Shown in pieces: positions 1 to 19,148 of a stretch of 64,000 bases of DNA (position 1 is the stretch's first letter; every line of letters starts with the position of its first letter). Origin of the DNA: Phycisphaerae bacterium. Its GTDB lineage: Bacteria; Planctomycetota; Phycisphaerae; UBA1845. The stretch lies in assembly GCA_963666835.2 (NCBI GenBank), contig CAXXGO010000001.1, positions 1,664,001 through 1,728,000 on the forward strand, in the 5' to 3' direction. The translations under genes were made by a program, and so were the position numbers. A model generated the notes under the pieces. That model did not search any database, was not told the origin of the DNA, and saw nothing but the letters and a program-made list of their open reading frames with translations.

Positions 1-1
1 C

Positions 2-1438
2 TTCACGCCGGCCGGCGATCTGGTGGTGAACGCCCCGCACATTCCGGTGCATCTTGGCGGGATGAGTGACTGCATAAAGTCACTAATCGAAGACGTGCGG
101 CGTTTCGATCCGGGTGATGTCTACGTGACCAACGATCCGTATCGCGGCGGATCCCATTTGAATGATGTTACGGTGATTACCCCGGTTTACGATGATGATG
201 GGGCCGAGATTCTGTTCTTCGTCGCCAGCCGAGCCCATCACGCCGAAATCGGTGGCCGTCGGCCGGGGTCTATGCCGCCCGATTCGAAGTGTCTGGCGGA
301 CGAGGGTGTAGTGATCCGGGTATTCCGCTGGATACGCGCGGGACGACCGCAGACCGAGGCGCTGCGCGCACTACTAAGCGCTTCGCCGTACCCCTCGCGC
401 ATGGTTGAGGAGAACCTCGCGGACATCGCCGCTCAGGTTGCGGCCAATCATCGCGGGGCGCAGGATCTGCGCGCGCTCGTAGCTCGGTACGGGGTAGCGG
501 TGGTTCACGCGTACATGCGCCATATACAAAACTCGGCCGAACGGAAGATGCGGGCTGCGCTGAATAGGTTGCCGGGCGGTGTCTCTCGGTTTGAAGATCA
601 CCTGGATGATGGAACGCCGATTGTCCTGTCGCTTACGGTAGAAGGGGATCAAGCGGTTCTCGATTTCACCGGTACCGGTCCCGTGTCGCCGGGAAATCTC
701 AATGCCAACCCGGCTATCGTGACCAGTGCGATACTGTATTGTCTGCGATGCCTATTGGCCGAGGATATTCCGCTTAACCAGGGAGTGCTTGCCCCGATCG
801 AGATTGTCCTGCCGGAGGGGCTGCTGAATCCGCCGTCGGCGGCGGATCCTCGCAAGTGCCCGGCCATGGCGGCTGGCAACGTCGAGACCTCGCAGCGCGT
901 CGTCGATGTCGTATTCGGAGCGTTGGGTGTGGTGGCCGCCTCCCAGGGCACGATGAACAACATCCTGATCGGGAATGATCGGTTCGGGTATTACGAGACA
1001 ATCTGTGGTGGGGCGGGGGCGGGGCCGACCTACCCTGGGGCCGATGCCGTGCATACCCACATGACGAATACGCGGCTCACCGATCCGGAAGTGCTGGAAT
1101 CTCGATATCCGCTTCGGCTCCGCCGATTCGCCGTTCGACCCGACTCCGGTGGAACCGGCAGATTCCGCGGGGGAAACGGGGTTATTCGCGAACTCGAGTT
1201 TCTAGAACCCTTGGAACTGTCGATAATCAGTCAACGACGCACCCGGGCGCCGTATGGCCTGTGCGGCGGAGAATCGGGAAGGGCGGGGCGGAACCACTTG
1301 ATACGTTCAGGAGCATCAGTTGGCGCGGATCTGCCCTCGGTAGTCCATGTGAACGTGGATCGCGGCGATAGGCTGATTGTGGAAACGCCCGGAGGAGGCG
1401 GTTACGGAAAGGAGCTTGAGTCGGCCGGAACGGATTGA
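2..1438 (+). CDS. 5-oxoprolinase / hydantoinase B domain (5' truncated by window edge)
   Basis: Open frame from the window start. Motifs [75 protein letters not shown]. Confidence 0.92.
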
Positions 1439-1484
1439 ACATCTGCCAACGCGGTCTGTAGTTCAACGGTGGTCGTCAGACGAT

Positions 1485-3260
1485 ATGAACCCACGCATCG
1501 CCTCAATCGAGAATCTAATCGCTCGTGATCCGGGTCGTCGAAACGTGTTCGGGCTTGTCGTCGCCGACCAGCTCCGCCTAGCCGCCCAGTCGCTCAGATT
1601 GGCCAAGCGGGTCGGGATCGTCAGCGGCTTCTACGTTCCCGGGGCGAAAGCCGGCGAAACCGATGGGCCGCCCGGGGCTAAGGTGATCGGTGCCGCCCTG
1701 GAGAAACTCGGCGCTAAGGTAGATTACATCACGGACCATTGGAACGCGCCGGTGTTTCGCGGGTTGGGGTTGGATCCGATTGTTGACCCGGGAGATTATC
1801 TCGATACCGCTGCTCCGACTCACCTTCTGGCGGTCGAACGGGTTGGACGTGGGCCCGATGGACGGTACCGCAACATGCGCGGTATTGACATAACGTCCAC
1901 AACCGCGCCGTTGGACGGGCTCTTCCTTGAAGCTTCTCGGCGGGGACTGACCACTATCGGAGTGGGCGACGGCGGAAACGAGATCGGGATGGGGAAGGTG
2001 TTCGTAGCTATCCTCGATACGGCGGACCCCACCATGCCCATCGAACGCGGCGCTGAGATCGCTACGGCCGTGACCACCGATTTTTGCGTCGTGGCCGGTG
2101 TCTCCAATTGGGGGGCGTATGGGCTGACCGGGGCGTTGTCGGTTCTGGAGGGGCGGGATCTGCTGCCGTCGGCGGAAGAGGTGGCTCGTGACGTCGAGCT
2201 GGCAGTGAGTGAAGGAGGGGCGGTAGACGGTGTGACGTGCCGGCGAGAACCAACTGTTGATGGGTTGGGTTTGTCTCACAGTCTGCGGATGTTGGAAAAC
2301 ATCCGTCGTCAGATTGCTCCTTCTCCGCTCGCGCGGGGTGCGAAACTTCGCGCCGGCATCCTGGGGTACGGGGTAACCGGGCGGGCGGCGGCTGCTCTGC
2401 TTGCGCTCCGCGGACATGATGTGTGCGTGTCGGATGAGCAGCCGGTGACGTTGGAATCCGGGACCGTCGTGGCGGGGGTGGAGACCGGCGGGCACACGGC
2501 TGACTTTTTGGGGCAATGCGATCTGGTGGTGGCGAGCCCCGGGGTGCGAGCGGATGCGCCGATCCGCAATGCTCTCCACCGCCGGGGCGTTCCGGTCTTG
2601 AGCGAGTTGGAGCTGGCCTACCAGTTGTGCGATCGCCCGTTGATCGGGGTCACCGGCACGGTCGGTAAGCGGACGACCGTTGAGTTGCTGCAAAAGCTCT
2701 ACCGTTCGGCGGGGCGCTCCTTGACCATCGGGGGGAATCGGGGCCGACCACTGTCTGCTCTCCTGGCCGAGTCCGAAAGAGACTCCGCGGACAAGGCAGG
2801 GGACGATCCGATTGCGGTGGCCGTATCGAGTTTCCAGCTTGAAACCGTGGTGCATTTCAACCCGCACGTGGCCGTGTTCCTCAACATCGATGAGGCCCAC
2901 CAGGACCGGCACGAGTCCATGGCGGAATACGTGCGGATCAAAAGCCGCGTGTTCATGAATCACCAGCCCAATGACGTGCTGATCTTGAACTTCGATGATG
3001 AACGGATTCGCCCGCTGGCCCGCAAGCATCAGGGGAGGACGTTCTTCGTGTCGAGCAGGCAATCCGTCGACCGCGGGGCGTGGCTGGATGATGGCACTGT
3101 GTTGTTGAACATCGGTGGGGCAACGGAGGAAATCGGGTTTGCCCGCCCGCGCTTTGCGGAGGATCTGCTGTCTGCGGTTCTGGCCGCCCGGCTCAGCGGT
3201 ATGTCTCGCGACACTCTGGCCGAAGCGCTCCGGCGTCTTGCAGCGACGGAGGTGGAGTAG
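1485..3260 (+). CDS. DUF4392 (D-glutamate cyclase-like) domain fused to MurD-like N-terminal and central domains
   Basis: N-half has ETDGPPGA, ERVGR..DGRYRNMRG, GVGDGGNEIGMG, VSNWGAY, GAVDG. C-half has GILGYGVTG, VVASPGV, SELELA, GVTGTVGKRTT, SSFQL, LNID.AH.DRH. ATG 1485 preferred over the 1377 start, which overlaps the upstream gene. Confidence 0.85.
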   Translation: MNPRIASIENLIARDPGRRNVFGLVVADQLRLAAQSLRLAKRVGIVSGFYVPGAKAGETDGPPGAKVIGAALEKLGAKVDYITDHWNAPVFRGLGLDPIVDPGDYLDTAAPTHLLAVERVGRGPDGRYRNMRGIDITSTTAPLDGLFLEASRRGLTTIGVGDGGNEIGMGKVFVAILDTADPTMPIERGAEIATAVTTDFCVVAGVSNWGAYGLTGALSVLEGRDLLPSAEEVARDVELAVSEGGAVDGVTCRREPTVDGLGLSHSLRMLENIRRQIAPSPLARGAKLRAGILGYGVTGRAAAALLALRGHDVCVSDEQPVTLESGTVVAGVETGGHTADFLGQCDLVVASPGVRADAPIRNALHRRGVPVLSELELAYQLCDRPLIGVTGTVGKRTTVELLQKLYRSAGRSLTIGGNRGRPLSALLAESERDSADKAGDDPIAVAVSSFQLETVVHFNPHVAVFLNIDEAHQDRHESMAEYVRIKSRVFMNHQPNDVLILNFDDERIRPLARKHQGRTFFVSSRQSVDRGAWLDDGTVLLNIGGATEEIGFARPRFAEDLLSAVLAARLSGMSRDTLAEALRRLAATEVE

Positions 3261-4045
3261 TGGATCCTGTTGATTACCGAAGCCTGACCGGTGCGGAGAT
3301 TCGCGCATTGTGCCGAGACGGCAAGTTCGATGGTCCCACCGCCGGCGTTGCCGCGGGTTTCGCCCAGGCCAACCTGATAATCCTCCCCGCCACGGATGCG
3401 CAGAGCTTCGCGGAGTTCTGTCGACTCAATCCCGCGCCGTGCCCGGTACTGGAGGTGACCGAGCCGGGCGACTTCGAGCCGCGGGTATTGGCGCCGGGGG
3501 CGGATCTGCGAACTGATTTGCCGCGCTATCGGGTGTACCGCGATGGCGTGTGCGTTGATGCCCCGACCTCGATTACGCCGCATTGGACTGACAATCTGGT
3601 GTCATTTTTGCTAGGCTGCTCGTTTGGTTTCGAGTCCGCGTTGATGGCATCCGGGGTGCCGGTTCGCCATGTGGAAGAGGGGCGAAACGTCCCAATGTAC
3701 CGGACGAGTATCGCCTGCCGACCGGCCGGGCTGTTCGAGGGTCCGCTTGTAGTGTCGATGCGTCCGATGACCGAGGAGCAGGCCGACCAGGCCGTTCGGG
3801 TGACCGCACCGTTGCCGCAGATGCACGGTGCTCCGGTGCGGATCGGGGCCGCGGAGGAACTGGGAATCGCCGATCTGGATCATCCGGACTACGGAGACGC
3901 GGTGACGATTCGCCCGGGCGAAGTCCCGGTCTTCTGGGCGTGCGGGGTTACTCCGATCGAAGCTCTGATCAGGGCCAAGCTGCACTTCGCGATCACGCAT
4001 GAGCCGGGTCACATGTTCGTCACTGACATACGCGCCGGCGCGTAA
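3260..4045 (+). CDS. DUF1445 putative hydro-lyase / D-glutamate cyclase family protein
   Basis: Motifs PTAG.A.GFAQAN, NPAPCP, DLRTDLPRY, GCSFGFE, NVPMY, VSMRP, HGAPV, FWACGVTP, THEPGHMF. Start overlaps the upstream stop (TAGTG). Confidence 0.93.
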   Translation: MDPVDYRSLTGAEIRALCRDGKFDGPTAGVAAGFAQANLIILPATDAQSFAEFCRLNPAPCPVLEVTEPGDFEPRVLAPGADLRTDLPRYRVYRDGVCVDAPTSITPHWTDNLVSFLLGCSFGFESALMASGVPVRHVEEGRNVPMYRTSIACRPAGLFEGPLVVSMRPMTEEQADQAVRVTAPLPQMHGAPVRIGAAEELGIADLDHPDYGDAVTIRPGEVPVFWACGVTPIEALIRAKLHFAITHEPGHMFVTDIRAGA

Positions 4046-4295
4046 CGCAGGTCGGGTGCCCCATCCTTCGCCCTTCGCCATCTCGCGGTGGACAGAAGGC
4101 CCTGTATACAGATGCCGTCACGGCATACGCACTACGTCCCAGGCGAAGGGTGGGGAATCGATTGCACGAGTGCATCTCGAACTCCCATTCGTCCCCCACC
4201 CATTCCGGCGGTGAATCGGTACGACTATCCGAGCCCGACAAGCGCCGGAATGAATGGCGCACCCACGCAGACTGCAGGCTGGAAGCCTGCGTTAC
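4042..4295. repeat. Nested REP-like palindromic element between convergent genes
   Basis: Ends are inverted GTAACGCAGG copies. The right end has the hairpin GCAGGCTGGAAGCCTGC. The internal element GGGTGCCCC...GGCGCACCC (4054-4264) contains two further inverted pairs. Confidence 0.7.
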
Positions 4296-4780
4296 GCGCT
4301 GTCACTGCTCCCCTGCTTGGAAGGCGGAACCGGATAGCTTTGCCAGATGACCTGGACGATCATCCACTTGCCGTCGTACTTGGCGAGGTGCAGATAATCT
4401 ATGCCCCATCCCGCGGTGAGCTTGGCCGCGGCCGTCTTGTCCAACACGTCGAACACTTCGACGGTCTTCGGAGCGTCCTTCCCGAATCTCCCGTCCTTGT
4501 TCCACCCTTCCGCCAGTTTCAGAAGCTGCGGGAATCCGCTGGGGATCTTGCGATACTCTTGGTCGGCTGACGTACGATGGAATCCGAACTTGGCCAACTC
4601 GGGATGCAGACTGCGCTTGAGTAGCTCCGGCTTCATCTCGTAGAAAGCCTCACAGTAGTCGAGTACCGCCCGCTCCACGGCTTCGCGGTCGTTTGTGGAC
4701 GACTTGTCGGTGCCGAGAGCGACGGTCACAGCCGTCGCGAGCACCACGCAGCCTGCCAGCACGCCCAGGAATCTTGCCAT
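4292..4780 (-). CDS. Secreted NTF2-like (putative lumazine-binding) protein
   Basis: Signal peptide; AVLDYCEAFY...LHPELAK, DVLDKTAAAKL, GIDYLHLAK.DGKWMIVQVIW. Confidence 0.8.
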   Translation of the reverse strand: MARFLGVLAGCVVLATAVTVALGTDKSSTNDREAVERAVLDYCEAFYEMKPELLKRSLHPELAKFGFHRTSADQEYRKIPSGFPQLLKLAEGWNKDGRFGKDAPKTVEVFDVLDKTAAAKLTAGWGIDYLHLAKYDGKWMIVQVIWQSYPVPPSKQGSSDSA

Positions 4781-11133: not shown

Positions 11134-11655
11134 ATGTCAGACGAAAGAGCCCGCATCGCCGTGTTTCCCGGGACCTTCGATCCGCTGACGCACGGCCACC
11201 TTGATATTGTGGCCCGAGCCGCCCGTCTCTACGACAAGTTGATCATCGGGGTCGGCGACAACCCGGTCAAGGAACAGGTTTTCACGCCCGAGGAACGCGT
11301 GGAGATGCTCGTCCAGTACACGTCCGATTACGCCGGCGTGGACGTGCAGATGTACTCGGGGTTGACCGTTGAGTTTGCCCGCAATGCCAACGCCGGCGTC
11401 ATCCTGCGCGGGATTCGCGATACGGTTGACCTGCATGCAGAGCTGGAGTTGGCGATAGGGAACATGATCATGGGCGGGATAGAGACCGTGTTCCTGATGA
11501 CCAGCGGCCAGCACGTGCTCACCTCCAGCACGCTAATCAAGCAGATCGTGGAGATCGGGCACTACGACGTAGATCATCTGACCCGAATCGTCCCTCTGGA
11601 CGTTGCTCGACGCCTTGAAGAACGGCTTCGTTTGCGCAAGAACAAGTCAGTTTGA
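11134..11655 (+). CDS. coaD: Phosphopantetheine adenylyltransferase
   Basis: AVFPGTFDPLTHGHLDI, ILRGIR, IETVFL, SSTLIK. Confidence 0.95.
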   Translation: MSDERARIAVFPGTFDPLTHGHLDIVARAARLYDKLIIGVGDNPVKEQVFTPEERVEMLVQYTSDYAGVDVQMYSGLTVEFARNANAGVILRGIRDTVDLHAELELAIGNMIMGGIETVFLMTSGQHVLTSSTLIKQIVEIGHYDVDHLTRIVPLDVARRLEERLRLRKNKSV

Positions 11656-14600
11656 TCCCGTGAAAGCGATCTGGAACGCGGCGAAATCCGGCAGATCCAC
11701 GTCACCGTCCTTGTTGAAGTCGAACGTCGCGGATTTGCTGGAACCGCCGATTCCGGGCCCGTTCCAATGCTCGGTTAACTGGTGGAAGTCTGTCTGATCG
11801 ACGTCCCCGTCAAGATCGCCGTCGCCGGTGGCCGGCTCCAAGGTGCGCAGTATCCGGAAGCCGATCTGGACGTCGGTCAAAGTGGCGGCCGTGTGCGTGC
11901 GAGAGTCGGTTCGCAGGCCGATATGGTCGATGGCGACGTTCCAGCCACCGCCGCGCAGGACTCGGTTGGCCAGATGCCCGCTGTTGCTGACGCGGTCCTG
12001 GATCCACTCGTAAACATTGCCGGTGATGTCGTACAAACCGAAGGCGTTGGCGTCGGCGGTGGTTGTCGTGCCGTCGGACAGCGTATTGGTCCCATCGTAG
12101 AAACCTACCGGCGTTGTGCCTCCGATCGTACAGTCGATCGCGTCCTCGAAGGGGTCGTCGCTGCAGCGGAAGTTCGCGTCCGCGCCGCCGACGATTGCGT
12201 CACGGCCGAAACCGTAGACATGATTTGCGCCCCAGCCGTCGTTGGCACCGACGTCCCACGCCGCGGCTTTGTACCACTCGTTGTACGGACTTGCCGTCAG
12301 GGCGTGGTCATCCATCGGCAGGCGGTATCCGCGGCAGGTCTCCACGAGGTCGGCTCGCTCGGTGCTGTCGAGATCCCGAACCGCCCAGTCGGCGGAGGTG
12401 ATGGCGGTGGAATGCCATCCACCCAGGTCCGTTGCATCGGACTCCGTATAACAGCGGTCGTCCGGCGACATGCCCTGATCCAGCGTCAGCCAATTGCAGT
12501 ACTTGGTCGCCCCGTACCAGCTTACTCCGACCACCGGGTGGTCTGCAAAGCCGCCCTCCGGAGCGAAGGAGCCCCCGGCGTATTGGATGCGGCTCTTCGA
12601 GGCGTCGAACATCAGAGCGTTGGTTGAGGGAGACGTGCCCTCGGCACCGGTGATTTCATCGTGGACGTACACGTCCCCCGCGTTCAGGTCGAAGTACATG
12701 TACTGCCCGCGCTCCGACGTGAGGTTGCTTTTGGCATCGTTGAGGAACTCGGCGAACTCGGCGTTGGTGGTGGGGAATGTGCCCATCACGTACGAGTGAG
12801 TCGGTCCGTTCGGTTGTTCGACGCTACCTAAGATCGACACTTCGCGGGTGACGACGAGCGGTTCCACGATTGTCAGGGTGATCTTGCGTTCCACAGCGAT
12901 GTCCCCGCCGTAATCGAACTTGAGCAGGGCGACGTACGAACCGTCATCCATCACCGCGGCTACGTCGGTCCGAATGGAAACGAGAACCTGAACAGACTCG
13001 CTCTCGGTCAAAGTGCCCCCGGCTTGATCCTGCCCTTCGATAGCCAGCCAGTCGACGGGCGGGTCAGTGGATGCGGTCCAATCCAGAGTCTCTCCCTGGC
13101 CGATGTTCGTAAGGGTGTACTCGGTTGCTGCCGGGGTAAACGGTCCGCCTTCGCGGCCTGTCACCCGCACATTGTCCGTCGGCAGCACGGAGAGGTCACC
13201 ACCGACGGTGAGCCGGACCGTGCGGTATTCAGTGTGTCCGCTGGTAAGATCCGCGAAGGCAACCTCCGTCGAGTGAACGCCGGTGTCCAGGAGGTTCGCA
13301 TCCTCATTGACCGACAGCGTGATCTGCCCGGTGAATCCCGGCAGCAGCGTGTCAGCGTAGGATGACGCGCCGTTGACATCCAACCAGTCCGCATCGGTAA
13401 CGCTGATTTCATAGTAGATGGACGGCGTGCCGATGTTCTCGATTTCGTAGACCGGATCGTCTCCCGAAGCAGCAAACGGCCCCCCGCTGTTTCCGGTCCA
13501 TTCGAAGTCCGGGCTGTCCTCCTGCTCGGCGGGCGAGATGCTCAGCGGGTCTTTGACCGTCAGATTGACCTCCCGCGAGATGCTACTTCCGGCCGTAGTG
13601 TTACGAAAGACGATGGTCTCGGAGTATTCGCCGACCGGGAGTGTCTCAATACTGTCATTAGTTTCGGGAATAACCGTTACCGTATCGTCGGGGTCCCCGT
13701 AGGGCTCCAGGACGCCGGCGATGGACGATCCCCCGTTAAGGTCGAGCCATGCCGCCGTACTCGTCACCGTGTACGCCAGATCGGTACTCGAGAGGTTCAC
13801 GGCCTCGATCGACGTTTGCAGCGGCGGATCGACCGGAACGCTCCAGATTGTCGTGATCTCCCACCCGTCGGGCGAGTCGACGTCGAGCGGCTCGGCCACC
13901 GAAAGGGTGAACGACCTGGTTTCCACGAAGCCGGTGGTCACGTTCTCGAACCGGACCGTGGCAGTGTAGTCGCCCGGGGGGCGAGTGGTGGCGACGGCGT
14001 TAGTCTCGACGTCGACAATGGCTTCGGCTTCGGCCGTCAGTTGTCCGGTGTCCGACGCCGCATCGTTGATGTTCAACCAGCGAGCCCCGGTCTGGGTGAC
14101 CGTCGCGCTCCAGTCCATAGCCGTAGCGGATGTGCTGGTCAGGATGTAACGTGCGAACGCGTTGGTGAACGGTCCCCCGTACATCCCATCGGCGTCGAAC
14201 CCTTCGGCCGGAGCGACCGAAAGAGGCTCGGACAACAGCAGGCGAATCTCACATTCAGTGGTTTCTTCGGTGGTTACGTCGGCAAACTCAATTGTGGCGA
14301 TGTGGTCCAACTTGGCCTGGACAACGCGGAATCCGAGATCTGGTGAGGTCGTGTCCGCGGGGAGGGTCTCCGCGTGATCGGCGCGAAGGGCGGCGTCGGC
14401 GGGGGGGTGACTCCAGTGTCCGCCGCGTACCCCGCGTTCAGTGGGGTGGTCATCAAGGTCCGGGCGAACGTCCTGGACCCATTCCGCGACGTTGCCGGTC
14501 ATGTCATACAGGCCGTAAGCATTATCGTCGGCGTTGGTTTCAAAGTCCGTCCCGTCTCCAATGACGTCTCCGCTGCCGTCGTTGTAGTGTGTGCCGTCAT

Positions 14601-17600
14601 AGAACCCGACCGGAGTCGAGCCGGGTTCGAAGGGGTCGCCGCTGGAATCGAAGTTGGCGTCCTGGTCGGTGATCGGCCCGTTGCGTCCGAAACCGTAAGT
14701 GTGGTTCACCGGATCTGCGGGGGGCCGGTCGTCCCACGTCGCCGCTTTGTACCACTCATTGAAGGCGGCGGAGGTTTCCGTTCCTTGGTCCATGGGTAGC
14801 CGGTACCCGGCGTAATTGCAGACCAGATCCCAGCGTTCGTCGTCATTCAAGTCTCGAGCCGCGGCACGGGGGGTGAGGTAGGTCGTCGTATCGTCCGTTC
14901 CCCACCAATCGCACGTGCTGATGGTAACGGGATGCCAATCGCCCACGTTCGGTCCTTCCGTGTACGCCCGCTGGGTGACGTCCAATCCGGCCTCGAGTGA
15001 CAGCCAATTGCAGTACTTCACCGCGCCGAACCAGCTTACTCCGGTAACGGGGTGTCGGTTGAAGTCTTCCTCCGCCGCGAACGCGGCCGTTTCTTCGTCA
15101 TAGACGAGGTGTTGGCTGTCGGCGGTGGCGAATAGCACAGCGGTAAGTGATCCCGGCCCCGACCCGCGCTCGCCCGTCTCGGTATCGTTGAGATAGACGT
15201 CACCGGTATCGGTGTCGACGTATACGTAATGCCCCCGAGCGTTGGCCGGGTTTGCCATAGCATCATTCAGGAAATCCACAAACTCCGCATTGGTGGTTTC
15301 GAACCGGGCTACTCGGAACGAATAGCCGGGACCGCCCGGTTGTTCGTCGCCGCCGGGAACGGTCGACATATCCACGATCGGGGCGGCGGGCGCCCGCAAT
15401 GCATCGGCTGCATCGTTGATAGACGCGACAACCTCGACGGAGGCATCGGGCGGAACCAGTCCTTCCACGGTCTGCCCGTCGGCGTTCAAGGTCAGCCAGT
15501 CCACATCGACTTCTGCCGTGAACTCGTTGGCCAGCTCTGTGCCCGTGGTGCTCAGAGTGTACACCGGCTCCGCCGAATCGAAGGTGTAGGGGCCTCCGAC
15601 CGGACCGCGGACCGTCAGCGTCTTTTCCGGTGCCACATCGATCGACGTCGAGGACTGGGCTTGCACGATCCGGAATCCCGTGAACGCTCTGGTGGAGCCG
15701 GGATAGTCGGAGTGCCGGGCGGAGTTTGTGAGCAGAAGATCCTGCGCAAGGCTCTGCCAGTTACCGCCGCGCGTTGCTCGGACGGCAGAGCTGGTGCCGT
15801 GATCCTGCATCCACTCGCTTACATTGCCGCACATGTCGTACAAGCCGTACTGGTTGGCCGTGTTCCTTGTCCGCGTTGTGCCGTCGGCAAGCAGGTTCGC
15901 GCCGTCAAACCACCCTACGGGAGAGACGTCATTGTCGAACTCGTCGCCGCTATCCCAGTAATTGGCGTCTGCACCCTCCATCACGTCACGGCCGAAGCCG
16001 TAGACGACGTTTCTACCGATCTCGCCGGGGCAGACCGGCTGGGCGTCGCCGCAGGCGTCTTGCGCGGCGGCCACCCCGTCAGCGCAACCCGGTCCGTCAA
16101 TCGACAACGTGAACGGTCCCGACGTCGTCGTTCGAGTCGCCACGCGAATCCAGTAGGTGACACCTGCCGTCACTTCCACTTCCGCGGAGCCGGTTACGCT
16201 GCAGACTATGTCATTACACGCGGAGCCGGGACAGCCGTCATGCACTGATATCAAATGCCGACTCAGCGGGTCGAACGTCAAGGTCAGCGATAGGGTGCCG
16301 GCCATGTCCGGAGTGTACGTCCACCATAGATCCGCAGCGCTTTCTTGCGGGTCGCAGGAGGCCTCGCCGTCCGAAGTGGCGTCCTCGCTGTCGCCGACTA
16401 AGTCCACGGGCGGAGTCTGATGGACCCAGGCCGCCGCCTTGTACCATTCACTGTATACGGACTCGGACTCTACTCCTCCGTCCATCGGTAGGCGAAAGCC
16501 GGCGAGGGCTCTCAGGTCTTCCCGCTCGGTGTCGTTCAAGTCGCGCACGGCCCAGTCGGCTGCCGAAATGGTAGTCGGATGCCAGTCTTCCGGCACGGCG
16601 CCCTCCGTGTAGACTCGTTGGGACGGGAGCATTCCCTGGCGGACCGTAAGCCAATTGCAGAACTTGGCCGCGCCGTACCAGCTCACGCCGGTAACCGCGT
16701 CATCCTCCGTGTCCGCGAGTACCCAGTACTGTCCTGCGTCGAAGTAGATCTGTCCGCCGTCTGCCGCATCGAACAGCAGCGTCCCGTTTCCCTCCGTGCC
16801 CTCCGCCCCGGTTTCCGCAGAGTGCAGATACACATTGCCGGAATCGGTGTCGTGGTACATCCAGTGGCCGCGCCAATCGCCGGGGTTGAGGTAGGCGTCG
16901 TTAAGAAACGCCAGGAACTCCGTGTTGCGGATCTCGTGGACCCCGATGCGAAAGGAATGCTCCGGCCCGCCGGGTTGCGGGTCGTCCGCGCGGACAATCG
17001 CCATGTCAATCGTCAAAGGAGCAAGTCCGACGGTGACCAGCACCGGTCGGTTGGTGGATGCCCCGGTAGCCAGGTCGCGAAACTCCACGTATGCAGAGTG
17101 AATCTCGCCGATCGGCAGGGCGTTGATCCCCGGCGTGCTGAGGGTAACGGCAATATCGGTGCTCAAGGTCGGGGCGATTGTTCCTTCGGCCATGACCCCG
17201 CCGTTAATCAGAACCCAGTCTTCCGTGGCAGTGGCGCGCCAATCCAACAGGCTGTCGGAGTTGTTTGTTATCGTGTAGACCTTGGCATCGGGGAAGAAGG
17301 GGCCCCCGGCCGGTCCCGACGACGCCAGACCATCCGTAGGCTCCACCCACAATACCCCCGTGACTTCGGCGGCAACCTGGCGAGTTGTGATCGTCGCCGA
17401 GTTCCGTTTCACATAGAGCGTTGCGGTATGGTCGCCAAGGGCCAGAGTGGTGGCATTGTCGTTGAGGGTCACGGTTACGACCACGCTTTCGAACGGCGCC
17501 AGGGTGCCGCCGGCGGTCAAGTCGCCGTCGCAGTCCACCCAGCCTACGTTGGAGGACACCTCCCACTCGAAGGCGTCGGGAGACCGGCTGGTGATTGTGA

Positions 17601-18822
17601 GCTCGCTCGGGCCGCCCGGGGCGAACGGGCCACCGAACGAACCTGAGAACGTAAACGTCACGTCCTCATCCGGTTCCACCAAAGGCGCCAAGCCGGGATC
17701 GGATTGGACTATTCTCAGTCCCGCCCATTTCGGAGTCGATTGCGGAAGATCCGGCGTAACTGACGTGTTCTGAAGAAACACGTTGTTCCAGCCGCCGCCG
17801 CGATACCAGCGATCCGCCTGGCTGCCGAGGTGTCCCTGCATCCACTCCCAGGCGTTGCCGGCCAGATCATAAACGCCGTAGTAGTTCTCGTTGGCATTAG
17901 TGGCGAACGCGATGGAACCGGGGAAGAAGTAGTCGGCCGGATAGCTCGTCCCATCGAACAGCCCGACCGGTGTGGTCTGCCCGTTGGCGGCGCAGTTGTC
18001 CGGATCGTCGAACGGATCGTTGCTGCAACGGTAGTTCGCGTCGAAGTTGGTCAGGACCTCGCGACCGAACCCATACTCGTGATGTCCGCCGGCGCCTCCG
18101 TTCGCGTCCGGGTCCCACGCGGCGACTTTGTACCACTCGTTGTACGGTCCTTCGTAGATATCCGCCGTGTGCATCGGCAGACGGTATCCGAGATAGTCCC
18201 CGTTGAGCTCGTCGCGTTCGCCGGCGGAAAGATCGCGCAAACTCCACGCCGAATCGGTAATGGTAGCCGGATGCCAGCCGCCCAGGTTTGTGCTGACGTC
18301 CTCCTTGTAGCAGCGATGTTCCGCGGGGATCCCGTGCTGGATCGTCAACCAGTTACAGAATTTCAAAGCCCCGTACCAGCTCATGCCGGTCACCGGATGA
18401 CTGCCGTAGTCGATCCCGTCCCGTATCGCCACCTGATAGGTACCGTCGACGAACTCGATCTGGTCGGCGGAGGTCGGGGAGAACATCTTGGTGGTCAAAG
18501 CTCCCGGCCCGGCCCCAGATCCGCCGGTCTTGTTGGTGTTGATGTAGACATTCCCCGTCTGCGTATCGAAGTACATGTACTGCCCGCGCTCGTTGCCCGG
18601 GTTATCGAGGGCGTCGTTCAGGAAGATCACGAATTGGTCGTTGCGGACCTCGAACCGGCTGATCCGGAAGTCATACGTCGGGCCGCCCGACAACGTGTCG
18701 CCGTCAATTGCGACGAAGTCGAGCAACAGCGGGTCAGCGCCGAAGGCGGGGCCGGCCAACGACGCCAAGGTCAATATCGCCAAGCACGCTGTTGCGGTTA
18801 GCTTGCCGAGAAACCTGTCCAT
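11647..18822 (-). CDS. Giant secreted protein: 4 FGE-sulfatase/CLec-like domains, ~7 BACON-like repeats, C-terminal dockerin-like EF-hand pair
   Basis: GGAGG RBS before ATG 18822 and a signal peptide. Four copies of (F/H)ExxNxxF..FLNDA / PV.GVSWYGA.K.CNWL / RLPM / EWYKAA.W / N.YG.YD..GN..EW / RGG.W / GFR. C-terminus DGDLDGDVDQTDF..DFNKDGDVDLPDF. Confidence 0.9.
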   Translation of the reverse strand: MDRFLGKLTATACLAILTLASLAGPAFGADPLLLDFVAIDGDTLSGGPTYDFRISRFEVRNDQFVIFLNDALDNPGNERGQYMYFDTQTGNVYINTNKTGGSGAGPGALTTKMFSPTSADQIEFVDGTYQVAIRDGIDYGSHPVTGMSWYGALKFCNWLTIQHGIPAEHRCYKEDVSTNLGGWHPATITDSAWSLRDLSAGERDELNGDYLGYRLPMHTADIYEGPYNEWYKVAAWDPDANGGAGGHHEYGFGREVLTNFDANYRCSNDPFDDPDNCAANGQTTPVGLFDGTSYPADYFFPGSIAFATNANENYYGVYDLAGNAWEWMQGHLGSQADRWYRGGGWNNVFLQNTSVTPDLPQSTPKWAGLRIVQSDPGLAPLVEPDEDVTFTFSGSFGGPFAPGGPSELTITSRSPDAFEWEVSSNVGWVDCDGDLTAGGTLAPFESVVVTVTLNDNATTLALGDHTATLYVKRNSATITTRQVAAEVTGVLWVEPTDGLASSGPAGGPFFPDAKVYTITNNSDSLLDWRATATEDWVLINGGVMAEGTIAPTLSTDIAVTLSTPGINALPIGEIHSAYVEFRDLATGASTNRPVLVTVGLAPLTIDMAIVRADDPQPGGPEHSFRIGVHEIRNTEFLAFLNDAYLNPGDWRGHWMYHDTDSGNVYLHSAETGAEGTEGNGTLLFDAADGGQIYFDAGQYWVLADTEDDAVTGVSWYGAAKFCNWLTVRQGMLPSQRVYTEGAVPEDWHPTTISAADWAVRDLNDTEREDLRALAGFRLPMDGGVESESVYSEWYKAAAWVHQTPPVDLVGDSEDATSDGEASCDPQESAADLWWTYTPDMAGTLSLTLTFDPLSRHLISVHDGCPGSACNDIVCSVTGSAEVEVTAGVTYWIRVATRTTTSGPFTLSIDGPGCADGVAAAQDACGDAQPVCPGEIGRNVVYGFGRDVMEGADANYWDSGDEFDNDVSPVGWFDGANLLADGTTRTRNTANQYGLYDMCGNVSEWMQDHGTSSAVRATRGGNWQSLAQDLLLTNSARHSDYPGSTRAFTGFRIVQAQSSTSIDVAPEKTLTVRGPVGGPYTFDSAEPVYTLSTTGTELANEFTAEVDVDWLTLNADGQTVEGLVPPDASVEVVASINDAADALRAPAAPIVDMSTVPGGDEQPGGPGYSFRVARFETTNAEFVDFLNDAMANPANARGHYVYVDTDTGDVYLNDTETGERGSGPGSLTAVLFATADSQHLVYDEETAAFAAEEDFNRHPVTGVSWFGAVKYCNWLSLEAGLDVTQRAYTEGPNVGDWHPVTISTCDWWGTDDTTTYLTPRAAARDLNDDERWDLVCNYAGYRLPMDQGTETSAAFNEWYKAATWDDRPPADPVNHTYGFGRNGPITDQDANFDSSGDPFEPGSTPVGFYDGTHYNDGSGDVIGDGTDFETNADDNAYGLYDMTGNVAEWVQDVRPDLDDHPTERGVRGGHWSHPPADAALRADHAETLPADTTSPDLGFRVVQAKLDHIATIEFADVTTEETTECEIRLLLSEPLSVAPAEGFDADGMYGGPFTNAFARYILTSTSATAMDWSATVTQTGARWLNINDAASDTGQLTAEAEAIVDVETNAVATTRPPGDYTATVRFENVTTGFVETRSFTLSVAEPLDVDSPDGWEITTIWSVPVDPPLQTSIEAVNLSSTDLAYTVTSTAAWLDLNGGSSIAGVLEPYGDPDDTVTVIPETNDSIETLPVGEYSETIVFRNTTAGSSISREVNLTVKDPLSISPAEQEDSPDFEWTGNSGGPFAASGDDPVYEIENIGTPSIYYEISVTDADWLDVNGASSYADTLLPGFTGQITLSVNEDANLLDTGVHSTEVAFADLTSGHTEYRTVRLTVGGDLSVLPTDNVRVTGREGGPFTPAATEYTLTNIGQGETLDWTASTDPPVDWLAIEGQDQAGGTLTESESVQVLVSIRTDVAAVMDDGSYVALLKFDYGGDIAVERKITLTIVEPLVVTREVSILGSVEQPNGPTHSYVMGTFPTTNAEFAEFLNDAKSNLTSERGQYMYFDLNAGDVYVHDEITGAEGTSPSTNALMFDASKSRIQYAGGSFAPEGGFADHPVVGVSWYGATKYCNWLTLDQGMSPDDRCYTESDATDLGGWHSTAITSADWAVRDLDSTERADLVETCRGYRLPMDDHALTASPYNEWYKAAAWDVGANDGWGANHVYGFGRDAIVGGADANFRCSDDPFEDAIDCTIGGTTPVGFYDGTNTLSDGTTTTADANAFGLYDITGNVYEWIQDRVSNSGHLANRVLRGGGWNVAIDHIGLRTDSRTHTAATLTDVQIGFRILRTLEPATGDGDLDGDVDQTDFHQLTEHWNGPGIGGSSKSATFDFNKDGDVDLPDFAAFQIAFTGSN

Positions 18823-18958
18823 GAATCGAGCCTCCATGCCCGTTGCGGGGTGGCAAGTTCCGGTTGCCTCGGCCGCCGTTGCGCGGTTCCGTTCCCTGTA
18901 GACTTCTGCTTTGTCACGCGTAGAGGTTCTGGTCCAATCCGCATTGTGTCCCGTCCCT

Positions 18959-18981
18959 GCACTGCTCAAGAACAGTGGCAC
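18959..18981. repeat. REP-like hairpin GCACTGCTCAAGAACAGTGGCAC
   Basis: Inverted copy with one mismatch at 24413-24435. Confidence 0.6.
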
Positions 18982-19148
18982 ACCCGAACACCCAGGCGTG
19001 ACGCCCCGCTGGCCGGCAGCGCATACCACCCCCGTACCACCATGTAGGCCATTATCGGCTGTTTCCCCCAAAACCGCCCACGGGATTTACCAACGTAGCG
19101 GTAGAGGAAGCGGTACCGGAAAGCACCGAGGGTTTCCAGCCAGCCCCC

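What the first reader, a model, noticed from the sequence alone, without database searches (positions are those of the whole stretch)
2..4045. D-glutamate cyclase half fused to a dead MurD module, in an operon with 5-oxoprolinase: candidate peptidoglycan-precursor-coupled D-Glu salvage system
Seen: three tightly packed co-directional genes encoding oxoprolinase, DUF4392-MurD and DUF1445. The MurD part keeps domain 1 (GxGxTG, SPGV; the UDP-MurNAc-binding domain) and a recognisable domain 2. Its P-loop reads GTVGKRTT (MurD: G(S/T)NGK(S/T)T), the Mg-binding Glu of LELSSFQ is Ala (VAVSSFQ), and DH is AH. The protein stops before the HR motif and lacks the whole C-terminal D-Glu-binding domain. Established: mammalian D-glutamate cyclase comprises DUF1445 plus DUF4392 and makes 5-oxo-D-proline, while MurD consumes D-Glu. 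Inference: the pseudo-MurD binds UDP-MurNAc-L-Ala(-D-Glu) and either gates the cyclase so D-Glu is destroyed only when wall synthesis does not need it, or presents a muramyl-peptide substrate. The oxoprolinase would then reopen the ring. I know of no description of this fusion.
Basis: partly seen in the sequence, partly recalled or inferred. Interest (0 to 1): 0.8.

Follow-up and report, generated by a model that had tools for sequence, protein, structure and literature searches.

The report
Dead MurD fused to cyclase domain
A group of uncultured planctomycete bacteria carries a metal enzyme related to the animal D-glutamate-destroying enzyme, welded to a disabled but strongly conserved copy of the cell-wall enzyme MurD, which probably lets cell-wall precursor levels control what the enzyme does; the chemistry is untested.

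Summary
Observation confirmed. Window 1485-3260 encodes DUF4392 (all six metal ligands kept) fused to MurD domains 1-2 without domain 3, between a 1293-aa oxoprolinase-type gene and DUF1445. It is no artefact or decay: 119 full-length relatives share it, and the MurD part is under the same purifying selection as DUF4392. Fixed swaps (S116R, E157A, D182A, I139R/K) remove the Mg-ATP site and make the cleft basic. A canonical murD lies 21 kb away. In the family, 42 of 96 genomes have this DUF4392; none of the 42 has glutamate racemase, but that split follows ancestry and a Dat-like transaminase is near-universal. The operon is not obligatory: four genomes keep the fusion without DUF1445 or this oxoprolinase, a second clade has neither beside it, and two genomes lack the MurD part. 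New here: stand-alone DUF4392 sits directly before murL-murD2-like genes in three other genomes, an independent tie to the wall's D-Glu step. Best reading (0.45): a UDP-MurNAc-peptide sensor gating D-Glu cyclisation. No binding or activity is shown. The scan noted this fusion before on other DNA; I found no paper on it.

The parts
2..1438 (+). C-terminal (Hydantoinase_B) part of a 1293-aa single-chain ATP-dependent 5-oxoprolinase/hydantoinase-type enzyme; the gene starts upstream of the window, directly after secA
   Evidence: PF02538 E 7e-177; whole gene PF05378+PF01968+PF02538; directly upstream of the fusion in 10 of 10 GTDB loci
1485..2315 (+). DUF4392 / GLUCM-like_C domain (residues 1-277) with the TON_0340 bimetal site E58, D60, E118, D162, E166, D259
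   Evidence: the six ligands kept in 118-120 of 120 sequences; ligands named in PMC5132392
2343..2627 (+). MurD domain 1 (residues 287-381): GxGxxG loop, D317 (E. coli D35), SPG (G73)
   Evidence: PF21799/PF21377
2628..3260 (+). MurD domain 2, remodelled (residues 382-591): P-loop GTVGKRTT (2655-2678; R396 at S116), GGNRG (R419 at I139), A446 at E157, A471 at D182; N138, Q162, H183, R186, K198 positions kept; adenine motif HNxxN degenerate; ends before domain 3
3260..4045 (+). DUF1445 / YcsI (UPF0317; N-terminal half of animal D-glutamate cyclase), start overlapping the fusion's stop
   Evidence: PF07286 E 2e-66, NF003969 387.7 bits over cut-off 324; solved relatives 3db9, 2pif; fused to the protein in 5 of 119 relatives

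Best explanation
The MurD part is a pseudo-enzyme kept as a ligand-binding module. It binds a UDP-MurNAc-peptide (UDP-MurNAc-L-Ala, or the L-Ala-D-Glu product) in a cleft that lost its Mg-ATP site and gained basic residues, and, packed rigidly against DUF4392, it switches the Mn/Mg-dependent DUF4392 site that cyclises free D-glutamate to 5-oxo-D-proline. These cells make D-Glu by a D-amino-acid transaminase and have no recognisable racemase to return the excess, so a sink is useful but must not starve the canonical MurD. Where DUF1445 and the oxoprolinase are present, they recover glutamate from 5-oxoproline; that salvage arm is optional. Shown: architecture, conservation, selection, residue swaps, gene distribution. 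Inferred: the ligand, the allostery and its sign, cyclase activity of this DUF4392, the roles of DUF1445 and the oxoprolinase.
For: Selection: mean pN 0.208 (DUF4392), 0.245 (MurD domain 1), 0.201 (domain 2 core) at equal pS 0.66-0.67 over 325 pairs of 26 genes; dN/dS 0.09-0.37 for the MurD parts in the 8 closest pairs. One origin with a long stem, then stasis (15 of 15 fusion rows on one branch, SH-aLRT 100, stem 1.08; quick tree). Loss of catalysis is fixed: E157 is E in 60 of 60 canonical MurD and 0 of 123 fusions (A 121); S116 is R in 121 of 123; D182 is A in 108; I139 is R/K in 123 of 123. Positions tied to UDP-MurNAc-L-Ala (PMC9780078; Q162, R186, K198 recalled) stay: G73 123, N138 123, Q162 122, H183 122, D35 D/E 123, K198 122 of 123. 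All six DUF4392 metal ligands kept. pTM 0.94 for the whole chain and fusion-specific conserved patches fit a fixed interface. G352 and G353 carry DUF4392 fused straight to DUF1445 with no MurD part, while G351 of the same genus has it: the module is an accessory. No MurI in 0 of 42 DUF4392 genomes, Dat-like gene in 42 of 42. Independent link: DUF4392-murL-like-murD2-like operons in 3 of 70 stand-alone DUF4392 loci, from other DUF4392 branches. Precedent for this ligand as regulator: E. coli MurI needs UDP-MurNAc-L-Ala (PMC12844806).
Against: No binding or activity was measured. D-Glu cyclase activity is shown only for the mouse DUF1445+DUF4392 protein (PMC5339696); stand-alone TON_0340 gave only weak phosphatase activity (kcat/KM 190 /M/s on AMP; PMC5132392), so the domain's own reaction is open. 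The uridine/pyrophosphate end is altered: L15 position is E in 84 of 123 where canonical MurD has R/K in 43 of 60, and R37 position is G in 58. Distant members lose more: P0126 lacks K115, H183 and K198; P0408 has L at S116. The MurI split follows ancestry (the 54 genomes closest to G000 by Dat identity hold 40 of the 42 DUF4392 cases and no MurI), and 35 of 96 genomes, 26 of them at least 90% complete, have neither gene, so it counts as about one event. The murL link is sporadic (1 of 121 and 2 of 34 genomes had that murL; one of them, G793, has no DUF4392 within 1.5 kb), and the three cases were found through DUF4392.
Confidence: 0.45

Rival explanations
1. Substrate presentation: the MurD part holds a UDP-MurNAc-peptide and the DUF4392 bimetal site works on it (trimming or editing a Glu-ended precursor, or cleaving its phosphate part); the released glutamate or oxoproline goes to DUF1445 and the oxoprolinase.
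For: The fusion persists alone in four family genomes and in a second clade. [quoted passage not shown] TON_0340 has a RecJ-like fold and weak phosphatase activity (PMC5132392).
Against: The alpha-amino group that cyclises in D-Glu is blocked in the precursor (chemistry, inference). TON_0340's cavity is described as small, and the motifs that carry its metal ligands are unchanged in the fusion. Two genomes lack the MurD part but keep DUF4392. I could not measure the distance between the two sites in the model.
Confidence: 0.2
2. The MurD part senses something else (ATP/ADP without Mg, another anionic metabolite) or is a structural or partner-binding module.
For: P-loop G114/K115 kept in 123 and 122 of 123; an Arg where the Mg ligand was; uridine-end changes. 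Modulation of the mouse cyclase by ATP/ADP is recalled (Katane 2018; not held).
Against: Adenine motif degenerate (H267 position lost; N271 is D in this protein, N in 104 of 123) and the domain-3 ADP contacts R302 and D317 are absent; the C-terminal 58 residues are the least conserved part; the GGN and SSFQ motifs survive in all 16 rows that span the clades.
Confidence: 0.15
3. Supply route: the system makes D-Glu (from 5-oxoproline) in place of MurI, switched on by UDP-MurNAc-L-Ala as E. coli MurI is.
For: 0 of 42 DUF4392 genomes have MurI, against 19 of the other 54; no MurL in 96 family genomes (the model gives 200 bits on a MurL-like protein).
Against: A Dat-like gene is in 93 of 96 genomes (the 224-aa piece scanned is best matched by D-amino-acid transaminase models but stays under their whole-protein cut-offs); 26 genomes at least 90% complete lack both MurI and the fusion; DapF can supply D-Glu in PVC bacteria (PMC5885031; not tested here); DUF4392 also sits in MurL operons that need no free D-Glu.
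Confidence: 0.12
4. A non-canonical ligase or kinase: DUF4392 replaces domain 3 and supplies metal or an acceptor to an active MurD core.
For: K115, H183, R186, K198 positions kept in the main clade.
Against: Both ligands of the ATP-bound Mg (S116, E157; roles recalled) are replaced; E157 is invariant in 60 of 60 canonical MurD; K115, H183 and K198 are lost in P0126.
Confidence: 0.05
5. Chance fusion with a decaying murD, or an assembly chimera.
For: One database protein nearly identical to this one is frameshifted after residue 420 (P0003); the MurD part was lost in two genomes.
Against: 119 full-length relatives at 59-72% identity, purifying selection, three lineages, junction spanned in other samples.
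Confidence: 0.01

Closest known systems
Mammalian D-glutamate cyclase DGLUCY/GLUCM (C14orf159; DUF1445 + DUF4392; PMC5339696)
   Same: Both domains present, adjacent or in one chain; metal ligands of DUF4392 kept.
   Different: Order reversed and usually split; a pseudo-MurD is inserted after DUF4392; DUF1445 is missing in some genomes; activity untested.
TON_0340 of Thermococcus onnurineus (DUF4392; PDB 4fc5, 5gl2-5gl4; PMC5132392)
   Same: 36% identity, same fold, six of six acidic ligands.
   Different: Stand-alone dimer; physiological substrate unknown; no Mur domain.
MurD ligase (EC 6.3.2.9; TIGR01087; PDB 3lk7, 2uag)
   Same: Domains 1 and 2 with the same fold (rmsd 2.7 to 3lk7); G73, K115, N138, Q162, H183, R186, K198 positions kept.
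   Different: No domain 3; N113, S116, E157, D182, H267 replaced; under the family cut-off; closer to outside MurDs (36-38% over about 305 aa) than to the genome's own (31% over 201 aa).
E. coli glutamate racemase MurI, activated by UDP-MurNAc-L-Ala (PMC12844806)
   Same: Proposed logic: the MurD substrate controls the D-Glu pool.
   Different: Unrelated protein; MurI makes D-Glu and uses no Mur-derived domain.
MurD2/MurL alternative pathway (PMC8788868)
   Same: Not in this genome, but stand-alone DUF4392 genes lie directly before murL-like and murD2-like genes elsewhere (L047, L067, L070).
   Different: No MurL found in G000 or its family; G000's MurD has the canonical K at the K348 position (GGQDKG).
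Single-chain ATP-dependent 5-oxoprolinase (OPLAH type) and the B. subtilis pxpA-ycsG-ycsI-pxpBC operon
   Same: Oxoprolinase-type gene next to a YcsI/DUF1445 gene; fused to it in G455 (1505 aa).
   Different: Here joined to the DUF4392-pseudo-MurD gene; stereospecificity unknown.

Membership tests
MurD ligase | TIGR01087 score over cut-off across three domains | tested here: not met
   193.8 < 211.95 bits; profile 3-300 of 441
MurD ligase | C-terminal D-Glu-binding domain (T321, K348, S415, F422) | tested here: not met
   absent; no domain-3 motif in 118 of 118 anchored tails
MurD ligase | P-loop GxNGK(S/T)T and Glu157 | tested here: not met
   GT(I/V)GKR(T/S)T; E157 position A 121, S 1, T 1 of 123
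MurD ligase | UDP-MurNAc-L-Ala contact residues (L15, T16, D35, T36, R37, G73, N138, H183) | tested here: inconclusive
   D35, G73, N138, H183 kept; T16 T/S in 98 of 123; L15 mostly E; T36 and R37 variable, as T36 and partly R37 are in canonical MurD
MurD ligase | Ligase activity | not testable with these tools
   needs an assay
DUF4392 / GLUCM-like_C | PF14336 over cut-off and TON_0340 fold | tested here: met
   245.2 > 27.9 bits; target TM-score 0.88
DUF4392 / GLUCM-like_C | Six acidic metal ligands | tested here: met
   E58, D60, E118, D162, E166, D259
D-glutamate cyclase (EC 4.2.1.48) | DUF1445 and DUF4392 together | tested here: met
   adjacent here; 35 of 42 family genomes have both; one chain in P0053, G352, G353
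D-glutamate cyclase (EC 4.2.1.48) | D-Glu to 5-oxo-D-proline activity | not testable with these tools
   needs an assay
ATP-dependent 5-oxoprolinase, single-chain type | Hydant_A_N + Hydantoinase_A + Hydantoinase_B in one chain of about 1300 aa | tested here: met
ATP-dependent 5-oxoprolinase, single-chain type | Substrate and L/D specificity | not testable with these tools
   needs an assay
MurD2/MurL pathway | murL gene in the genome | tested here: not met
   G000 (92% complete): one 20.5-bit partial hit to NF041275, no tblastn hit with a MurL-like query; family 0 of 96

The most novel reading that the evidence does not exclude
A Mur ligase has been recycled into a dedicated sensor of cell-wall precursor that gates an enzyme, and bacterial DUF4392 proteins are a so far unrecognised part of peptidoglycan D-glutamate control, recruited to that step at least twice: by fusion to a pseudo-MurD in racemase-free planctomycetes, and by operon linkage to MurL/MurD2 in other phyla.
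Probability: 0.4. Interest if true: 0.8.

Novelty: new variant of a known kind. Interest (0 to 1): 0.62.

Why it matters
If the MurD part is a sensor, it is a Mur-ligase pseudo-enzyme used for regulation; my searches of the open library found no such case. It would show a second, unrelated way to tie the D-glutamate pool to wall-precursor demand, next to MurI activation in E. coli. It also hands a testable ligand and context to DUF4392, a domain found from archaea to humans whose bacterial role is unknown, and the natural variants (with and without the MurD part, with and without DUF1445) let the work of each half of the animal D-glutamate cyclase be separated.

Tried and rejected
Complex prediction of the fusion with DUF1445: no verdict, score 0.00 twice, controls not folded; used neither way. 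The fusion as an essential MurI replacement: rejected because Dat-like genes are near-universal and 35 of 96 genomes have neither. A split HyuAB pair as stand-in for the oxoprolinase in G204, G320, G337: it is there but in an unrelated cluster and in 22 of 96 genomes regardless. Local duplication of the genome's own murD: not favoured, though the tree is a quick one with a long own-MurD branch. DUF1445 as a two-cysteine racemase (GCSF and ACGVT motifs resemble such enzymes, from memory): the wide fold search listed no racemase, which is inconclusive. No RNA holder listed. No sigma-70-type site and no terminator above chance in 1-4400; G+C of the genes is like the genome's. MurI status of the second clade could not be tested. 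Stand-alone or longer forms of the pseudo-MurD were not searched with the 'shorter' or 'longer' options; short hits among the 150 representatives looked like fragments but were not all checked. Paper searches: DUF4392/DUF1445/glutamate cyclase/oxoprolinase, D-glutamate cyclase (34), ycsI/pxpA (35), pseudoenzyme + Mur ligase (90), Planctomycetes + racemase (91), NrpR (111, 0 papers), DUF4392 + MurD (115, 0 papers): none describes the fusion; subscription journals are not covered and no supplements were read.
Full report
Observation. The first is the tail of a 1293-aa single-chain oxoprolinase/hydantoinase-type gene that begins before the window, behind secA. The second (1485-3260, 591 aa) has PF14336 in residues 1-277 and MurD domains 1-2 in 289-584; TIGR01087 covers profile positions 3-300 of 441 and stays under its cut-off. 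The third is DUF1445/YcsI. Every quoted motif is present. Against E. coli MurD the changes are N113V, S116R, E157A and D182A, with H183, R186 and K198 positions kept. The AlphaFold model is confident throughout (pLDDT 95.3, pTM 0.94) and matches MurD 3lk7 and the DUF4392 protein TON_0340.

Not an artefact, not decay. The homologue search listed 120 proteins: one is a frameshifted near-copy of this protein (P0003) and 119 cover most of the query at 59-72% identity, those with names being Phycisphaerae or Planctomycetota. Contigs from two other samples cross the junction. In 26 coding sequences, mean pN is 0.208 for DUF4392, 0.245 for MurD domain 1 and 0.201 for the domain-2 core at equal pS; in the eight closest pairs dN/dS of the MurD parts is 0.09-0.37, like DUF4392 (0.10-0.31). 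Only the last 58 residues are loose. In a quick tree all 15 fusion rows sit on one branch (SH-aLRT 100) with a long stem. The part resembles outside MurDs (36-38%) more than the genome's own (31% over a shorter stretch). The canonical murD lies 21 kb upstream with its domain-3 motifs and is found in 23 of 24 fusion genomes that are at least 90% complete (not in G204).

What was changed in the MurD part. Comparing 123 fusions with 60 canonical MurD sequences: E157 is E in 60 of 60 and in none of 123; S116 is R in 121; D182 is A in 108; I139 is R or K in 123; the adenine motif HNxxN has lost its H; domain 3 is gone. Two acids leave the cleft and two bases enter. G73, N138, S159-S160, Q162, H183, R186, K198 and an acid at D35 stay. 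PMC9780078 (passages) lists L15, T16, D35, T36, R37, G73, N138 as UDP-MurNAc-L-Ala contacts, H183 as a Mg ligand, and G114-T117, N271, R302, D317 as ADP contacts; the roles of E157, Q162 and K198 are recalled. So the ATP side is broken and the sugar-peptide side mostly kept, with a caveat: the L15 position is E in 84 of 123 where canonical enzymes often have R or K. In distant members even K115, H183 and K198 can go, while GGN(R/K), SS(F/Y)Q and RxFMN(Q/H) persist. That fits a binding module, not a ligase.

The enzyme part. All six acidic metal ligands of TON_0340 are kept in 118-120 of 120 sequences. TON_0340 binds two Mn ions in a small cavity and has only weak phosphatase activity; its true substrate is unknown (PMC5132392, parts 1-3 of 4 read). 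The mouse DUF1445+DUF4392 protein turns D-Glu into 5-oxo-D-proline (PMC5339696, passages). That DUF4392 carries the cyclase chemistry is my inference.

Distribution. In a 301-genome sample of the class the fusion appeared in one family only (5 of 301). In that family (96 genomes at least 70% complete) 42 have this DUF4392 (40 fused or cut by a contig end, 2 without the MurD part), 36 have DUF1445 (35 shared) and 49 have the oxoprolinase (37 shared). The oxoprolinase is directly upstream in 10 of 10 GTDB loci and DUF1445 directly downstream in 6 of 10, two loci ending too early. Natural variants are informative. Five relatives fuse all three domains. G352 and G353 join DUF4392 to DUF1445 with no MurD part, while G351 of the same genus has it. 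G204, G320 (one contig), G337 and G339 keep the fusion but show no DUF1445 and not this oxoprolinase; in G320 and G337 secA abuts the fusion. A planctomycete of another class (G455; 1 of 300 phylum genomes besides G000) has the fusion in one place and an oxoprolinase-DUF1445 fusion in another. A second clade, one member labelled Syntrophobacteraceae, has the fusion with neither gene nearby in 7 of 7 loci, often between an AhpD-like gene and glycerate kinase. So DUF1445 travels with the oxoprolinase, and the fusion can stand alone.

D-glutamate supply. G000 has the dcw cluster, no MurI, no MurL and a Dat-like transaminase. MurI is in 19 of 96 family genomes and in none of the 42 with DUF4392. 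But the Dat-like gene is in 93 of 96, the 54 genomes closest to G000 by Dat identity hold 40 of the 42 and no MurI, and 35 genomes have neither gene. The split is thus about one evolutionary event. It fits a D-Glu sink in cells without a racemase and argues against an essential supply role. Lack of MurI is common in PVC bacteria, where DapF may serve (PMC5885031, passages); I did not test DapF.

An independent link to the wall. Among 70 stand-alone DUF4392 loci from GTDB genomes, 29 have DUF1445 nearby and 3 have a murD. In those three (L047, titled Omnitrophota; L067 Methylomirabilia; L070 Rokubacteria) the order is DUF4392, murL-like (NF041275 200 bits, under its 700 cut-off), murD, with overlapping stops and starts in L047. 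All three MurDs have R at the K348 position and L047 also has E at D182, the two marks of the L-Glu ligase MurD2 (PMC8788868, parts 1-2 of 3 read). None of the three genomes has a MurI over cut-off. Their DUF4392 proteins lie on two branches apart from the fusion clade (fast tree). The cassette is rare: that murL was in 1 of 121 and 2 of 34 genomes sampled around two of them, and one of these (G793) has no DUF4392 within 1.5 kb. It is a lead, found through DUF4392, but it is separate from the fusion.

Mechanism. Most likely (0.45) the pseudo-MurD binds a UDP-MurNAc-peptide and gates a D-Glu cyclase site, with DUF1445 and the oxoprolinase as an optional salvage arm. The oxoprolinase also occurs in 12 genomes without the fusion, so it may be an ordinary L-specific enzyme, which would require a D-to-L step that no result here identifies. 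Rivals: action on the precursor itself (0.2), another ligand or a scaffold role (0.15), D-Glu supply (0.12), a new ligase (0.05). E. coli MurI needs UDP-MurNAc-L-Ala (PMC12844806, passages), which shows that this ligand is used for such control.

Novelty. The protein is a DUF4392 member and is not a MurD. No paper in the open library holds both DUF4392 and MurD, and the other searches (listings only unless named above) showed no description. PMC11580864 lists split gut homologues of GLUCM in a table, PMC10448178 shows ycsI in the B. subtilis ycsG operon, and PMC5147048 had nothing of use; all three were seen as passages. Earlier notes of this scan describe the same fusion and operon on other DNA; they are not independent support. 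I rate it a new variant of known parts, interest 0.62.

Noticed in passing
L047:7986-11724; L067:888-4542; L070:8001-11666: Stand-alone DUF4392 directly upstream of murL-like and murD2-like genes in three genomes of other phyla.
   Followed up: partly
window 3260-4045: Beyond its own family (2pif, Z 34.2), the DUF1445 model matches the NrpR-like protein MJ0159 (3nek; Z 9.7, rmsd 3.7, 164 aligned; next row Z 4.3). NrpR domains bind 2-oxoglutarate (recalled), which hints at a C5-acid pocket.
   Followed up: no
L222:8802-13319 (G455): Oxoprolinase fused to DUF1445 in one 1505-aa chain.
   Followed up: partly
G000:C1:1643833-1668045: Canonical murD, large repeat-rich proteins, secA and the operon lie within about 25 kb; murD is also 11-49 kb from the fusion on the same contig in several relatives, away from the dcw cluster on C6.
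   Followed up: no
L218:7531-11423; L219; L220: A highly conserved split HyuA/HyuB pair (75-85% identity in 22 of 96 family genomes) beside indolepyruvate oxidoreductase-like, acyl-CoA dehydrogenase-like and mutase-like genes; not found in G000.
   Followed up: partly
window 4038-4299: Three nested inverted-repeat pairs of 14-20 nt after the DUF1445 stop; may be a repeat element or a terminator-like structure.
   Followed up: no
window 11647-19071 (-): 2474-aa ORF with three repeated units that look like formylglycine-generating-enzyme-type domains and Ig-like spacers (from the translation; not scanned).
   Followed up: no
P0003: Database protein nearly identical to the fusion but frameshifted after residue 420; sequencing error or a broken allele.
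   Followed up: no
L120, L124, L139, L123, L146: In the second clade the fusion has an AhpD/peroxidase-related gene divergently upstream and/or a glycerate 2-kinase-like gene downstream.
   Followed up: no
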